Part shown: piece after piece, positions 39,275 through 48,885 of the stretch
Layout: every line of letters begins with the position of its first letter
Position numbering within the stretch: the stretch's first letter is position 1
Source of the DNA: the human T2T-CHM13v2.0 reference genome, Homo sapiens
DNA length: 64,000 nt
Direction: 5' to 3' (one strand)
Assembly (NCBI RefSeq): GCF_009914755.1
Contig: NC_060926.1
The notes under the pieces: generated by a model
Seen by the model: the letters and a program-made list of their open reading frames with translations, nothing else
What the model was told of the DNA's origin: nothing
Database searches by the model: none
Translations under genes and position numbers: made by a program

Positions 39275-40605
39275 CCCGTCAGAACAGCGTCCCCTCAGAA
39301 AAGGGTCCCCTCAGAACAGGATCCCCCTCAGAGTAGGGTCTCCTTAGAACAGGGCCCCCTCAGAGCAGGATCCCTCCAGACCAGGGTCCCCCTCAGAACA
39401 GTCTCCTCAGAGCAGGGTCCCCTCAGAATAGGATCCCCCCCAGACCAGGGTCCCCCTCAGAGCAGGGTCTCCTCAAAACAAGGTTTCCTGAGAACAGGGT
39501 TCCCCTCAGAGTGGGGTTTCCTCAAAACAGGGTCCCCTCAGAGCAGGGTCCCCCCAGAGCAGGGTCCCCTAAGAGCGGGGTCTCCTCAGAACAGGGACCC
39601 CCTCAGAGCAGGGTCCCCTTAGTGCAGGGTACCCTCAGAACAGCATCCCCTCAGAGCAGGGGACCCCTCAAAACAGGGGCCCCCTCAGAAAAGGATTTTC
39701 TCAGAACAGAGTCCATCTCAGAACAGGATCCTACTCAAAGCAGGGTGTCCCCAGAGCAGAGTCCCCCCTAAAGCAGGGTCCCTCCAGAGCAGGGTCCACC
39801 CAAAACAGGGTCCTCTCAGAACAGGGTCTTCTCAGAATAGCATCCCCCTCAGGCTCTCAGAACAGGATTCCCTCAGAATAAAGTTCCCTCAAAACAGAGT
39901 CCTTCTCAGAGCAGCAGCCCCCTCAGAACAGGGTCTCCCTTTAAGCATCATTCCCATTAGAACAAGGTTCCCCAGAACAGCATCACCCTCAGAACAGGGT
40001 CTCCTCAGAACTCTATCTTCCTCAAACAGGATCCTACTCTGGATGGGGTCTCCCTCAGAATCTTGTTTCCCTCAGAAAAGAGTCTGGCTCAGGGCAATGT
40101 CCAGGGCCCCATCAGGACACTGTTTCCCTCAGAACAAGTTCCCTCCTCACCGCATCCCTCAATAAGGGCTCTCCAAGAATAGGATGCCCCTGAAAACAGC
40201 ATACCCCTCACAACAGGGTCCCCCAGAACATGGTCTCCCTCCAATCAGAACTACCCCCAGAACAGACTCCACCTTAAAACATTGTTTGCCTTAGATCAGG
40301 GCCCTTACCAGCCCCAGAACATTGTTCTCTTCAGAACCTTTTTCTCCACTGATAATAGCATTCCCTTGAGGACAGTGTCCCCATTTCCATCAGGACAGGA
40401 CTCCCCCAGAACAGTGTTCACCTCAGAGCAGGATTCTCCCCCAGAACATTGTCCTCCTCAATGGGTCCGCCCAGAACAGCATCCTCTTCAGAACAGGGCC
40501 TCCCTCAGATCAGGGTTCCCCACAGAACAGAGTCTTCCTCAGAACATCATTCTCAGGACAGAGTCCCCCCTCCCCAGGGCAGGACCTGTTCAGGGCAGAG
40601 TCCCC
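39275..40605 (+). repeat. Degenerate 17-18 bp minisatellite array, consensus ~cccctcagaacagggtc
   Basis: Dozens of ctcagaacagggtcccc / ctcagagcagggtcccc units, more degenerate toward the 3' end. Confidence 0.93.
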
Positions 40606-40681
40606 ATAGCTGCTGTGGGGAGGGCAGGGCCCTGGGACTTGTTTCCACCTTGGCTGCTAGGCTCATAGGTTTTTCTTTCAG

Positions 40682-40732
40682 GTGTTCCAGCTCCACGAAG
40701 GGCATGTAGCAGGGGTCACAAAAATGGAGTAG
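40682..40732 (+). CDS. FARP2: Candidate FARP2 alternative terminal exon, coding part VFQLHEGHVAGVTKME*
   Basis: Acceptor tttttctttcag|GTG, phase 0 like the exon 17 donor; agrees with my recollection of short C-terminally truncated FARP2 isoforms (not verified here). Confidence 0.55.
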   Translation: MFQLHEGHVAGVTKME

Positions 40733-45550: not shown

Positions 45551-48500
45551 CTGCTGTGGGGGAACCTGTTCTGAGGGGGACCCTTTTCTGAGGGGACTCA
45601 GTTACGAGGGGACGTGGCTCTCAGGGGGTCCTGTTCTGATGGGGATGCGCTCTGAAGGGATCTTGGACGGAGGGGGACCCAATTCTGAGGGGACCCTGTT
45701 CTAAGGACACTGCTCTGAGGAGATTCTGTTCTAAGGGGACCATGGTTGGAGGAGGACTCTGTTCTAAAGGGGACAGTGTTCTGAGGGGGGACTCTGTTTT
45801 GAGGGAAACACTACTCTAAGAGAACCTTCTTCTGAGGGGGACCCTTTTTTGAGGGGGACACTGTTCTGAGGGGACTCAGTTATGAGGGAGACACTGCTCT
45901 CAGGGGGTCCTGTTCTGATGGGGATGCACTCTGAGGGGATCTTGGACTGAGGAGGACCCTGCTCTGAGGGAGGGGTCCATACTCTGAGGAGACTCTATTC
46001 TGTGGGGACCCTGTTCTTAGGAGGATACTGTGCTGTGGGGACTCTGCTCTCAGGTGGATGCTGCTCTCGGACCCTGTTCTGAAGAGATGCTGTTCGCAGG
46101 GGGATGCTCTGAGAGGACCTTGTTTTGAGGAGACCCTATTCAGAGGGGGACCCTGTTCTGGGTGCTCACTACCCTGAGGGAACTCTTATGTGAGGGGAAT
46201 GTTATTCTGGGGGGGACACTACCCTGAGCGGATCTCGTTCTAAGTGGGGAATAGTGTCATGGGGGAACATGTTCTGAGGAGGATGCTGTTCTGAAGGGGA
46301 CCCTGTTCTGTGGGGGATTCTGCTCTGAGAAGGACCCTGTTCTGAGGAGGATTCTGTTCTGAGGGGTCTCTGTTCTGACGGGGGTCCTGTTCTGAGGGGG
46401 ATGTTCTTCTGAGGGGACCCTGTTATAATGGGATACTGTTCTGAGGGGACCCTGTTCCGAGTGGGATGCCGTTCTGAGGGGACCCTGTTCTGCGGGGAAT
46501 ACTGTTCTGAGGGGGACGCTGTTGTGAGGGGACACTATTCTGAGGGGATGCTGATCTGAGGGGACCCTGTTTTGTGGGGATCCTGTTCTGTAGAAACCCT
46601 GTTCTGAGTGGGATGCTGTTCTAAGGGGACCCTGTTCTACAGGGGATTTGATTCTGTGAGGACCGTGTTCTGTGGGGACCCTGTTCTGAGGGGGTTGCTC
46701 TTCTTCTTTTTTTTTTTTTTTTTTTTTTTTTTTTGTGTGAGACGGAGTCTCGCTCTGTCGCCCAGGCTGGAGTGCAGTGGCAGGATCTCGGCTCACTGCA
46801 AGCTCCGCCTCCTGGGTTCATGCCATTCTCCTGCCTCAGCCTCCCGAGTAGCTGGGACGACAGGCGCCCGACACCACGCCCGGCTAATTTTTTTTGTATT
46901 TTTAATAGAGACGGGGTTTCACCGTGTTAGCCAGGATGGTCTCGATCTCCTGACCTCGTGATCCGCCCGCCTCAGCCTCCCAAAGTGCTGGGATTACAGG
47001 CGTGAGCCACCGCGCCCAGCCGGGGTTGCTGTTCTACGGAGACCCTATTTTGTGGGGCATCTTGTTCTTGTGAGGACGCTGTTCTGAAGGGAACCTGTTC
47101 TGTCAGGATCCTGTTCTGAGAGGACCATGTTCTGTGGGGACCCTGTTCTGAGGGAACCCTGTTCTGTGAGGATTCTGCTCTGCAGAGGCCCTATTCTGAG
47201 GGTAGTGCTGTTTTGAGGGACTCTTTTCTGAGGGGACCTTGTTCTTAAGGGGATCCTGTTCTGAGAGGGATGCTGTTTTGTGGGGACCCTGTTCTGAGGG
47301 GACTGTGTTCTGTGGGGAACCTCTTCTGTGGGGACCCTGTTCTGAGGGGATTATGTTCTGTGGTGATCCTGTTCTGAAGGAATCCTGTTGTGAGCAGGAG
47401 GCTGTTTTGAGGGGAACCTGTTATGTGGGGAACCTGTTTTCTGGGAACACTGTTCTGAGAAGACCCTGTTTGGAGGGGGATGCCATTTTGAGGGGATCCT
47501 GTTCTGGGGGGGTTCTGTTCTGTGGAGACCCTATTCTGAGGGTAGTGCTGTTTTGAGGGGACCCTGTTCTGAGGGGACCCTGTTCTTAGGGGGATCCTGT
47601 TCTGAGGGGGATGCTGTTCCATGGGAACCCTGTTCTGAGGGGACCATGTTCTGTGGGGAACCTCTTCTGTGGGAACCCTGTTGTGAGGGGATTCTGTTCT
47701 GTGGTGATCCTGTTATGAAGGAATCCTGCTTGGATTCCTTGAGATGCTGTTCTCAGGGGACCCTGTTCTGTGGGGATTCTGTTATGTGGGGGATGCCATT
47801 CTGAGGGGGATCCTGTTCAGACGGGGATGCTGTTTTGAGGCAACCCTGTTCTGAGGGAGATTCTTTTCTGTGGGGACCCTGTTCTGAGGGGACCCTGTTT
47901 TATGGTGTTCTGTGGGGATTCTGATCTGAAGGGACCCTGTTCTGTGGGGCATCTCATTCTGTGAGGACCCTGTTCTGTGGGGAACCTGTTCTGAGAGGAC
48001 CCTGTTCTGAAGGGAATGCTATTCTGAGGAGACCGTGTTCTGTAGGGATTTTGTTCTGTGTAGACGCTGTTCTGAAGGTGATGCTGTTTTGAGGGGACTC
48101 TGTTCTGAGGGGACCCTGTTCTGAGGATGCTGCTGCTCTGAGGAGACCCTATTCTGTGTGGATTCTGTTCTGAGGGGACCCTTTTATGTGGGAGATGCTG
48201 TTCTGAAGGGACTCAGTTCTGAGGGCACCCTGTTCTGAGGGGACGCTATTCTGAATGTGATGCTGTTCTGCGGGGACCCTGTTCTGAGAGGGATCCTGTT
48301 CTGAGGGGAACCTCTTTTGAGGGGGATGCTGTTCTGAGGGGACCCTATTCTGAGGGGGATGCTCTTCTGAGAGGACCCTGTTCTGAAGGGATCCTTTTCT
48401 GTGGGGACCCTGTTCTGAGGGGGCTGCTGCTCTATGTGGCCTCTGTTCCAAGGGTGATGCAGTTCTGAGGGGACCCTGTTGTGAGGGCATTATGTTCTCT

Positions 48501-48885
48501 GGGGACCCTGTTCTGAGGTGGACGCTGTTCTGTGGGGATCCTGTTCTATGAGGACTCTTTTTCTGAGGGGACTCTGTTCTGTGGGGGATTCTGTTCTGTG
48601 GGCATCCTGTTCTGTGTGGATTCTGTTCTGTGAGGACCCTTTTCTAAGGGGACCCTGTTCTGTGGTGACCCTGCTCTATAGGGACCCTGTTCTGAGGGGA
48701 CCCTTTTCTGAGTGAGATGCTGTTCTGAAGGTACCCTCTTCTGAGGGGACCATGTTCCAAGAGGACCCTGTTCTGTGGCAGATGCTATTCTGTGGGGGCC
48801 ATGTTCTGAGAGGGACCCTTTTCTGAGGGACCCTGTTCTGCAGGGGGCACTACTCTGTGGAGACCCTGTTCTGTGGGTTCTGTGG
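45551..48885 (-). repeat. Same minisatellite in reverse orientation (ggggaccctgttctgag)n, about 3 kb, interrupted by an AluY
   Basis: Unit ggggaccctgttctgagggg is the reverse complement of the 39.3-40.6 kb unit. Confidence 0.95.
46705..47021 (-). mobile_element. AluY inserted in the minisatellite
   Basis: CpG-rich AluY, long T run; TSD ggggttgct(c/g)ttct at 46691-46704 and 47022-47035. Confidence 0.93.

What the first reader, a model, noticed from the sequence alone, without database searches (positions are those of the whole stretch)
39275..48885. Two kb-scale arrays of one minisatellite in inverted orientation bracket the DH-coding exon 18
Seen: a ~1.3-kb (cccctcagaacagggtc)n array begins about 75 nt after the exon 17 donor, and a ~3-kb reverse-complement array begins about 2 kb after exon 18. 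Between them lie two alternative acceptors, a poly(A) signal and exon 18. Known: intronic inverted repeats form pre-mRNA duplexes that promote exon skipping, back-splicing and ADAR editing. Inference: this could be a non-Alu, multi-register RNA duplex looping out exon 18. The exon is 238 nt (phase 0/1), so skipping causes a frameshift, or it could yield a single-exon circRNA. Array length variation could act as a splicing QTL, and the pair is a substrate for inversion of exon 18.
Basis: partly seen in the sequence, partly recalled or inferred. Interest (0 to 1): 0.7.

Follow-up and report, generated by a model that had tools for sequence, protein, structure and literature searches.

The report
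Inverted minisatellite arrays around FARP2 exon
Two long runs of the same 16-base repeat, pointing in opposite directions, lie in the introns on either side of one FARP2 exon and could zip together in the RNA on paper, but nothing yet shows that they change how the gene is spliced.

Summary
A decayed 16-17 nt minisatellite (CCCCTCAGAACAGGGT) fills 39247-40610 on the + strand. This array (A) starts 45-73 nt after the exon ending at 39202. Its reverse complement (B) fills 45520-48895 and is split by a young Alu at 46695-47025. A third patch of about 5 units lies at 52290-52372. All 120 blastn matches between the two regions are plus/minus, and 40 of 43 genome-wide 22-mer hits lie in this locus. 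In silico the arms pair strongly. All 32 tested pairs of 300-nt segments gain 93-219 kcal/mol over self-folding, against 34 for shuffles and 6-14 for controls. A reduced-model MFE fold pairs A with B1 over 853 bp and encloses exon 18. However, exon 18 is also flanked, much closer, by ordinary inverted Alu pairs of equal or better quality per base pair. I found no report of an exon 18 circRNA, of exon 18 skipping, or of RNA editing in these introns. The arms are 61-72% identical with at most 28 nt of exact match, so inversion by homologous recombination is unlikely. Best reading: a neutral subtelomeric repeat pair with latent capacity to loop out the exon. It is a candidate member of the known class of exon-flanking inverted repeats, with no function shown.

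The parts
39121..39202 (+).
   Evidence: Hub annotation. AG/GT splice sites and the reading frame were checked; distances.
39247..40610 (+). Array A: 16-17 nt minisatellite CCCCTCAGAACAGGGT. It is C-rich in the RNA sense, best preserved at its 5' (outer) end and decayed towards 40610.
   Evidence: TRF; blastn limits; decay profile; composition; 56 runs of C>=3 and 58 pyrimidine-tract+CAG motifs.
40682..41250 (+). Alternative terminal exons (acceptors at 40682 and 40896) of short FARP2 isoforms that cut the DH domain. The 1479-nt intron before them is about 92% array A.
   Evidence: Hub annotation; acceptors and tail peptides; AATATA at 41226 and ATTAAA at 41282.
42198..42495 (+). Alu, plus orientation, in the intron upstream of exon 18. 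It is inverted relative to the Alu at 44318-44600.
   Evidence: I4; -426 kcal/mol; paired with the Alu at 44318-44600 in the MFE fold.
42599..42883 (+). Second plus-orientation Alu, 482 nt upstream of exon 18
   Evidence: (-413 kcal/mol).
43365..43602 (+). Exon 18: 238 nt, phase 0/1, encodes the middle of the DH/RhoGEF domain. Skipping it gives an immediate stop codon.
   Evidence: Pfam PF00621, E 6.4e-16.
44318..44600 (-). Alu, minus orientation, 716 nt downstream of exon 18. It is the partner of the upstream plus-orientation Alus.
45520..46694 (-). Array B1: reverse complement of the array A unit (GGGGACCCTGTTCTGA on the + strand), G-rich in the RNA sense
   Evidence: TRF; blastn; GC skew +0.28 to +0.30; paired with A over 853 bp in the reduced MFE fold.
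46695..47025 (-). Young Alu inserted into array B (28-nt T run, 21 CpG, target-site duplication GGGGTTGCT). It shows that the array predates the insertion.
47026..48895 (-). Array B2: the longest and best-preserved part of the reverse-complement array
   Evidence: TRF (113.8 copies, score 1207).
49446..49763 (+). Plus-orientation Alu in the same intron as B. It is the strongest partner of the Alu at 46695-47025, so this is a within-intron competitor pair.
   Evidence: I2, 95% complementary; -611 kcal/mol; 297 pairs.
49922..50250 (+). Second plus-orientation Alu in the same intron as B
52290..52372 (-). Third patch of about 5 units of the same minisatellite, in the same orientation as B, in the intron after exon 51258-51388
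   Evidence: 81% identity over 73 nt; sequence read; motif bin.

Best explanation
The feature is a decayed minisatellite whose exact unit is almost confined to this locus. It is present as two inverted arrays plus a small third patch in three consecutive FARP2 introns, in the repeat-rich end of chromosome 2q.

Origin (inferred): an already heterogeneous array was copied locally in inverted orientation, and both copies then drifted. No carrier transposon is involved.

Action (inferred): because both arms are transcribed in one pre-mRNA, they form a latent reverse-complementary pair. On energy grounds they can make an imperfect duplex of 850-1080 bp in any register. That duplex would enclose the alternative terminal exons and exon 18 and would sit outside an ordinary inverted Alu stem. 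If it forms before the upstream intron is removed, it would bring the 39202 donor towards exon 19. That would favour low-level exon 18 skipping (frameshift, so nonsense-mediated decay) or a 238-nt single-exon circle, and would offer ADAR a substrate.

My judgement is that the arrays are essentially neutral. Any splicing effect is probably small and redundant with the closer Alu pairs.

Shown: the arrays, their orientation, their near-confinement to this locus, and the pairing energetics. Inferred: the origin, in vivo pairing, and any effect on splicing.
For: - Arrays and orientation: (120 of 120 HSPs plus/minus).
- Near-private unit: the 32-mer at <=2 mismatches hits 4 of 4 in this locus. The 22-mer at <=2 mismatches hits 40 of 43 in this locus, 10 in A and 30 in B, against 0+2 for the backward-pattern control.
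- Common origin: the rare unit variants ACAGCATC, ACAGGATC, CCTCAAAAC and CAGAATAG occur in A, B1 and B2. 126 and 161 of A's 1215 distinct 12-mers recur in reverse-complemented B1 and B2, and 0 recur in the same strand.
- No shared unique flanks and no transposon carrier: only Alu matches.
- Repeat-rich setting: two further minisatellites lie in the same 64 kb, at 32576-33060 and 60421-61246.
- Pairing capacity.
- No signal of selection for pairing: identity between arms (61-72%) equals the match level within arrays (64-70%).
- Redundancy: 4 cross-exon inverted Alu combinations lie closer to exon 18. The two combinations scored have -1.67 and -1.70 kcal/mol per pair and mean helices of 9 bp, against -1.50 to -1.54 and 6 bp for the full-length arrays.
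- Precedent for the mechanism: inverted Alu pairs and non-Alu 220-297 bp inverted pairs flanking an exon cause exon skipping in TBXT/Tbxt (PMC10901737, passages read).
Against: The total predicted duplex energy is 3-4 times that of any Alu pair. The minisatellite has no inverted partner within its own intron, whereas the downstream Alus do, so a real effect cannot be dismissed. All pairing evidence is thermodynamic. The MFE fold used a reduced construct of 12 blocks (7248 nt) with the spacers removed. Neutrality is inferred from the lack of evidence, not shown. Conservation in other species and length variation among people could not be examined. B1 is transcribed 2.2 kb after the exon 18 acceptor, so the upstream intron may already have been spliced out. 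This last point rests on general knowledge of splicing kinetics and was not computed.
Confidence: 0.6

Rival explanations
1. The inverted arrays are a functionally important RNA clamp. The A:B duplex forms in vivo and measurably drives exon 18 skipping or circularisation. Because pairing works in any register, array copy number tunes the effect, giving a VNTR splicing QTL for a Rac-GEF.
For: Very large net pairing energy in 32 of 32 segment pairs and specific to the inverted orientation. A pairs with B1 in the MFE fold even with all Alus present. There is no within-intron competitor for the minisatellite. Non-Alu inverted pairs of only 220-297 bp suffice in Tbxt (PMC10901737).
Against: No exon 18 circRNA, exon 18 skipping event or editing report was found. 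Four FARP2 circRNA ids appear in print. Only one has coordinates (hg19 chr2:242343242-242357524), and its position relative to exon 18 was not established. Closer inverted Alus already supply this architecture. Helices are short (mean 6 bp). The enclosed loop is 4.9-8.3 kb. There is no sign that complementarity is kept above the general decay level.
Confidence: 0.2
2. The arrays act separately rather than as a duplex. A would be a C-rich platform beside the 39202 donor, filling the short-isoform intron with poly-C-binding protein sites and 58 decoy pyrimidine-CAG motifs. B would be a G-run platform or an R-loop/G-quadruplex-prone stretch that slows RNA polymerase. Either could shift the choice between the truncated (40682/40896-41250) and full-length isoforms.
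For: A has 56 runs of C>=3 and 58 Y6+CAG motifs. B1 and B2 have 130 runs of G>=3, and 14 four-G-run motifs if loops up to 13 nt are allowed. GC skew is -0.15 to -0.33 over A and +0.27 to +0.31 over B. Array A is 1364 of the 1479 nt of the short-isoform intron.
Against: No canonical G4 motifs with loops <=7 nt (0 of 6 strand/array combinations). B starts 1.9 kb from exon 18 and 4.3 kb from the alternative 3' end, which is far for known G-run enhancers. The protein-binding assignments are recalled motif preferences and were not tested here.
Confidence: 0.12
3. The pair matters at the DNA level, as a substrate for recurrent inversion of the exon 18 segment by non-allelic homologous recombination, or for cruciform-type instability.
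For: Inverted orientation and kb-scale arms.
Against: The longest exact complementary match is 22 nt (B1) and 28 nt (B2), and identity is 61-72%. This is far below the hundreds of bp of near-identity that human NAHR needs (established knowledge, recalled). The spacer is 4.9 kb, too long for cruciform extrusion (recalled). An inversion would destroy a DH-domain exon.
Confidence: 0.03

Closest known systems
TBXT AluY/AluSx1 exon-flanking inverted pair (exon 6 skipping; Xia et al. 2024, PMC10901737, passages read)
   Same: Two reverse-complementary elements sit in the introns on either side of one exon. They are proposed to form a pre-mRNA stem that traps the exon in a loop. That paper shows that non-Alu inverted pairs of 220-297 bp also work, and it calls for a search for more such configurations.
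   Different: Here the arms are tandem arrays of a 16-17 nt unit, 1.4 and 3.4 kb long and only 61-72% complementary, and they can pair in any register. They enclose 4.9 kb that also holds alternative terminal exons. Skipping would be out of frame. No skipped isoform has been shown.
Inverted-Alu / reverse-complementary-match driven exon circularisation (named from general knowledge; mentioned in PMC10901737)
   Same: Cross-exon complementary pairs compete with within-intron pairs. Exon 18 has 4 cross-exon Alu combinations and the downstream intron has 4 within-intron ones.
   Different: The minisatellite pair lies outside the Alu pairs and has no within-intron competitor. No back-splice junction for exon 18 was found in print.
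Subtelomeric G/C-rich minisatellites (VNTRs)
   Same: Neighbouring minisatellites lie in the window. Related arrays exist at chr19:3.127 Mb (unit GGGTGACCCTGTTCTGG) and chr9:149.69 Mb (unit CCCCCCAGACCAGGACAG).
   Different: This is the same near-private unit present as an inverted pair flanking a coding exon. The arrays are highly decayed (64-70% matches). Polymorphism was not examined.
Mouse Sry inverted repeats giving circular Sry RNA (recalled from memory, not checked here)
   Same: Long non-SINE inverted repeats flank a single exon.
   Different: The Sry arms are near-perfect and are not tandem arrays.

Membership tests
Exon-flanking reverse-complementary intronic pair (IRAlu-like looping element) | Two arms in opposite orientation, one in each intron flanking the exon, on the transcribed strand | tested here: met
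   (120 of 120 HSPs plus/minus). A lies in the intron before exon 18 and B in the intron after it (hub annotation).
Exon-flanking reverse-complementary intronic pair (IRAlu-like looping element) | Inter-arm duplex more stable than self-folding of each arm, and specific to the inverted orientation | tested here: met
   Net gain -93 to -219 kcal/mol in 32 of 32 segment pairs. Shuffles give -34 +/- 6.5; same-orientation and unrelated controls give -6 to -14.
Exon-flanking reverse-complementary intronic pair (IRAlu-like looping element) | Cross-exon pairing not out-competed by partners within the same intron | tested here: met
   No plus/plus HSPs and no inverted partner inside either intron. The reduced MFE fold pairs A with B1 over 853 bp. 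This is in silico and on a reduced construct only.
Exon-flanking reverse-complementary intronic pair (IRAlu-like looping element) | Duplex forms in cells (A-to-I editing clusters, psoralen or proximity-ligation chimeras) | not testable with these tools
   No RNA data are available. The search FARP2 + RNA editing + intron returned 2 papers in the listing; neither was opened and neither title concerns editing in these introns.
Exon-flanking reverse-complementary intronic pair (IRAlu-like looping element) | Output: a skipped isoform or a back-spliced circle of the enclosed exon | not testable with these tools
   FARP2 circRNA ids exist in array studies, but none is tied to exon 18. One FARP2 exon-skip id is listed without exon identity.
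Minisatellite / VNTR | Head-to-tail tandem copies of a 10-100 nt unit | tested here: met
   TRF period 16-17, with 45.7, 69.2 and 113.8 copies.
Minisatellite / VNTR | Copy number varies among individuals | not testable with these tools
   Only one haplotype (the window's assembly) is available.
NAHR inversion substrate | Inverted arms with long tracts of near-identity | tested here: not met
   Longest exact match 22-28 nt; 61-72% identity.
Transposon-borne internal repeat (arrays seeded by two insertions of one element) | Shared non-array flanks, or the unit dispersed with a repeat family | tested here: not met
   Flank blastn finds only Alu matches. Only 3 of 43 22-mer hits lie elsewhere, all singletons.

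The most novel reading that the evidence does not exclude
A kb-scale 'sliding' dsRNA clamp built from inverted minisatellite arrays controls inclusion of a frameshifting DH-domain exon of FARP2. It could also control production of a 238-nt single-exon circle. Because any register pairs, clamp strength would scale with array copy number. This would make it a human-polymorphic, non-Alu, length-tunable splicing switch.
Probability: 0.12. Interest if true: 0.6.

Novelty: new member of a known kind. Interest (0 to 1): 0.35.

Why it matters
If the duplex forms and acts, it would be a human example of exon looping by arms that are tandem arrays rather than SINEs. Repeat length, which is a common and poorly genotyped kind of variation, would then set the dose of a Rac exchange factor by pushing transcripts into a frameshift. 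It would also answer the call in the TBXT paper for further exon-flanking inverted configurations (PMC10901737). If it does not act, it is still a useful negative. It would show that a predicted duplex of well over 1000 kcal/mol can be silent when the arms are decayed, far apart and shadowed by closer Alu pairs.

Tried and rejected
1. Pfam scan of the spliced window CDS as typed letters. Only exon 18 was scanned, by window reference.
3. Rfam gathering scan of 38000-52000: 0 matches.
4. PRDM9-like 13-mer CCNCCNTNNCCNC: 0 in A and 0 in B, against 7+8 in the whole window. There is therefore no support for a hotspot-motif array.
5. Transposon carrier or shared flanks: only Alu matches.
6. Strict locus uniqueness was rejected. 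Looser relatives (67-74% identity) exist at chr19:3.127 Mb, chr9:149.69 Mb and chr16:93.15 Mb. Of the 23 matches, 12 are in this locus, 2 on chr19, 8 on chr9 and 1 on chr16.
7. Folding the whole 9.7-12 kb pre-mRNA stretch was not run. By my own extrapolation from timing trials (6.8 s at 2 kb, 40 s at 4 kb) it would take about 400 s, over the 300 s limit. A reduced 7248-nt construct was folded instead.
8. My first unit segmentation by anchor regex lost most units: 34, 11 and 18 units from 50, 31 and 47 anchors. Its identity figures are indicative only.
9. Literature searches:
   - Nothing relevant from: FARP2+circRNA (7 papers), FARP2+VNTR (2, both about 2q37 deletions), FARP2+tandem repeat+splicing (1, chicken), four circRNA ids or circFARP2 (3, array tables), FARP2+RNA editing+intron (2) and FARP2+exon skipping (2).
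   - No papers from: FARP2+minisatellite, the unit sequence in four rotations, and inverted+minisatellite+circular RNA+flanking introns.
   - Reverse complementary+circRNA+tandem repeat+non-Alu returned 1 paper, the TBXT study, which is used as the precedent.
   - Calls: 5, 6, 14, 21, 22, 30, 31, 42, 43, 50.
   - Supplementary tables of VNTR, sQTL, circRNA and editing catalogues were not searched and may bear on this.
10. Inversion by homologous recombination was rejected on identity.

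
Full report
**1. Is it there?**

Yes. TRF reports a period-16 array with unit CCCCTCAGAACAGGGT at 39275-40011 (45.7 copies, 69% matches), with a degenerate tail to 40546. It reports the exact reverse-complement unit at 45559-46693 (69.2 copies, 64% matches) and 47029-48877 (113.8 copies, 69% matches).

A core-motif count shows the orientation directly.
- The forward form CAGA[AG]CAG occurs 35 times in the 64-kb window, 27 of them in bins 39001-40500.
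- The reverse form occurs 78 times, 70 of them in bins 45501-49000 and 3 in bin 52001.
- Only bins with 3 or more hits were printed.

blastn between 38700-41400 and 44600-49450 gave 120 HSPs, all plus/minus. Homology is limited to 39247-40610 and 45520-48895. Arm A aligns full-length to B in many registers at 61-72% identity. The flanks share nothing but Alus.

The gap in B is a minus-strand Alu at 46695-47025. It has a 28-nt T run, 21 CpGs and a GGGGTTGCT target-site duplication made of repeat sequence. Array B therefore already existed when this young-looking Alu inserted.

A third patch of about 5 units in the orientation of B lies at 52290-52372, in the next intron.

**2. Gene context**

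- The exon at 43365-43602 is 238 nt and starts in phase 0. Removing it gives a stop codon after two codons.
- Its translation matches Pfam RhoGEF positions 89-165 of 180, E 6.4e-16.
- The alternative acceptors at 40682 and 40896 add tails of 16 and 7 residues, so those isoforms end in the middle of the DH domain.
- The 1479-nt intron before them is almost entirely array A, which is 1364 nt.
- Exon numbers 17 and 18 were not verified.

**3. How private is the repeat?**

In the whole assembly, a two-unit 32-mer at 2 or fewer mismatches hits 4 of 4 times in this locus. A junction 22-mer hits 43 times: 10 in A, 30 in B, and 3 singletons on other chromosomes. The backward-pattern control gave 0+2.

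A BLAST-type search with 626 nt of A gave 23 matches.
- 12 are in this locus.
- 2 are at chr19:3.127 Mb.
- 8 are at chr9:149.69 Mb.
- 1 is at chr16:93.15 Mb.

TRF shows that the chr19 array has unit GGGTGACCCTGTTCTGG and the chr9 array has CCCCCCAGACCAGGACAG. The exact unit is therefore nearly private, but it belongs to a loose group of G/C-rich 16-18 nt arrays near chromosome ends. The window holds two more minisatellites.

**4. Origin (inferred)**

- A, B1 and B2 share rare unit variants. 126 and 161 of A's 1215 distinct 12-mers recur in the reverse complement of B1 and B2, and none recur in the same strand.
- Each arm also has its own favoured variants. CAGAGCAG accounts for 11 of 28 core units in A but 6 of 71 in B. 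CCACAGAAC occurs 17 times in B2 and once in A.
- A is best preserved at its outer end. The same trend in B is weaker.

This fits a local inverted copy of an already mixed array, followed by separate drift. No transposon carrier was found. A simple inversion of the interior segment would have inverted exon 18, so I reject that.

**5. Can the arms pair as RNA?**

On energy grounds, clearly yes.

| Comparison | Result |
|---|---|
| duplexfold A x B2 | -1662 kcal/mol; 1083 pairs, 110 G-U; 173 helices, mean 6.3 bp, 9 of 15 bp or more |
| duplexfold A x B1 | -1357 kcal/mol |
| Net gain over self-folding, 32 of 32 pairs of 300-nt segments | -93 to -219 kcal/mol, mean -150 |
| Same measure, Alu pair flanking exon 18 | -226 kcal/mol |
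| 12 dinucleotide shuffles | -34 +/- 6.5 kcal/mol |
| 3 same-orientation pairs | -6.6 to -11.0 kcal/mol |
| 4 unrelated intron pieces | -6.5 to -14.1 kcal/mol |

I also ran an MFE fold of a reduced 7248-nt construct holding all repeats and exons but not the spacers.
- A paired with B1 over 853 bp.
- The two upstream Alus paired with the Alu at 44318-44600 (140 + 114 bp).
- The Alu at 46695-47025 paired with the Alu at 49446-49763 (297 bp).
- B2 folded on itself (607 pairs).

Exon 18 thus sits inside two nested stems. This is a thermodynamic picture only.

**6. What weakens the functional reading**

- Exon 18 already has the standard architecture. Plus-strand Alus end 482 nt upstream and a minus-strand Alu starts 716 nt downstream. 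These give -413 to -426 kcal/mol, at -1.67 to -1.70 kcal/mol per pair with mean helices of 9 bp. The full-length arrays give -1.50 to -1.54 kcal/mol per pair with mean helices of 6 bp.
- Identity between arms equals the match level within arrays, so nothing suggests that pairing is being preserved.
- B1 is transcribed 2.2 kb after the exon 18 acceptor. The upstream intron, together with A, may therefore often be removed first. This is general knowledge and was not computed.
- The alternative 3' end at 41250 lies 4.3 kb before B, so the duplex is unlikely to influence the short isoforms.

**7. Literature**

- FARP2 circRNA ids appear in three array or sequencing tables (PMC6781726, PMC6257835 and PMC5567231; table rows read). 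Only hsa_circ_0004924 has coordinates, hg19 chr2:242343242-242357524. By my recalled hg19 gene start it would lie upstream of the window, but this is unverified.
- ExonSkipDB lists one FARP2 event without naming the exon (PMC7145592).
- Searches for FARP2 with VNTR, minisatellite, or tandem repeat+splicing gave nothing on this locus. So did searches for the repeat unit itself. Two searches for inverted tandem arrays as circRNA or skipping drivers found no such case; one returned no papers and the other only the TBXT study.
- The mechanism has a direct precedent in TBXT. There an inverted Alu pair, and in mouse engineered non-Alu pairs of 220-297 bp, cause exon skipping (PMC10901737, passages read).

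**8. DNA-level claim**

The longest exact complementary match is 22-28 nt and identity is 61-72%. This is too low for homologous inversion by the usual requirements (recalled). The arrays contain no PRDM9-like 13-mers.

**9. Verdict**

This is a real and unusual-looking arrangement. It is an inverted pair of kb-scale arrays of a near-private minisatellite around a frameshifting DH-domain exon, with strong register-independent pairing potential. It is best filed as a candidate member of the known class of exon-flanking inverted repeats. It is probably neutral or of minor effect, and its function is untested. Interest is moderate to low (0.35). The bold reading, a length-tunable RNA clamp, remains open at roughly 1 in 8.

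Noticed in passing
window 41310-42185: An insert of about 870 bp ends in AATAAA plus an A run and is bracketed by the direct repeat AACCCTTTAGCT (41309 and 42190). It looks like a retroposed 3' piece of a transcript. Relatives at 80-82% identity lie at chr12:32.93 Mb, chr16:0.557 Mb and chr17:30.69 Mb. The parent gene was not identified.
   Followed up: partly
window 60421-61246 and 32576-33060: There are two further minisatellites in the same gene. One is a 16-nt C-rich unit CTCCCTCCCTGGGGTC x 48.7 (67% matches). The other is a well-preserved 81-nt unit x 6.0 (97% matches).
   Followed up: no
window 46695-47025 and 49446-49763: Two young-looking Alus (21 and 20 CpGs) lie in inverted orientation within one intron. 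They are up to 95% complementary and give -611 kcal/mol with mean helices of 21 bp. This is the best dsRNA and ADAR-substrate candidate in the region, and a within-intron competitor to cross-exon Alu pairing.
   Followed up: partly
L005 1254-2158 (chr19:3.127 Mb) and L006 896-2316 (chr9:149.69 Mb): Related G/C-rich arrays are present on other chromosomes. Their units GGGTGACCCTGTTCTGG (17 nt) and CCCCCCAGACCAGGACAG (18 nt) share the CAGAACAGGG-type core with the FARP2 unit. No inverted partner was seen within the fetched 3.5 kb.
   Followed up: partly
window 39247-40610 versus 45520-48895: The A-to-G unit variant CAGAGCAG makes up 11 of 28 core units in array A (RNA-sense strand). It makes up 6 of 71 in array B read on the opposite strand. 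This could reflect transcription-linked mutation asymmetry or just the spread of one variant unit. It was not tested.
   Followed up: no
window 52373-52480: The sequence directly after the third repeat patch looks to me, from memory only, like an old LINE-1 fragment. It was not tested against any repeat library. It is not shared with the flanks of A or B.
   Followed up: no
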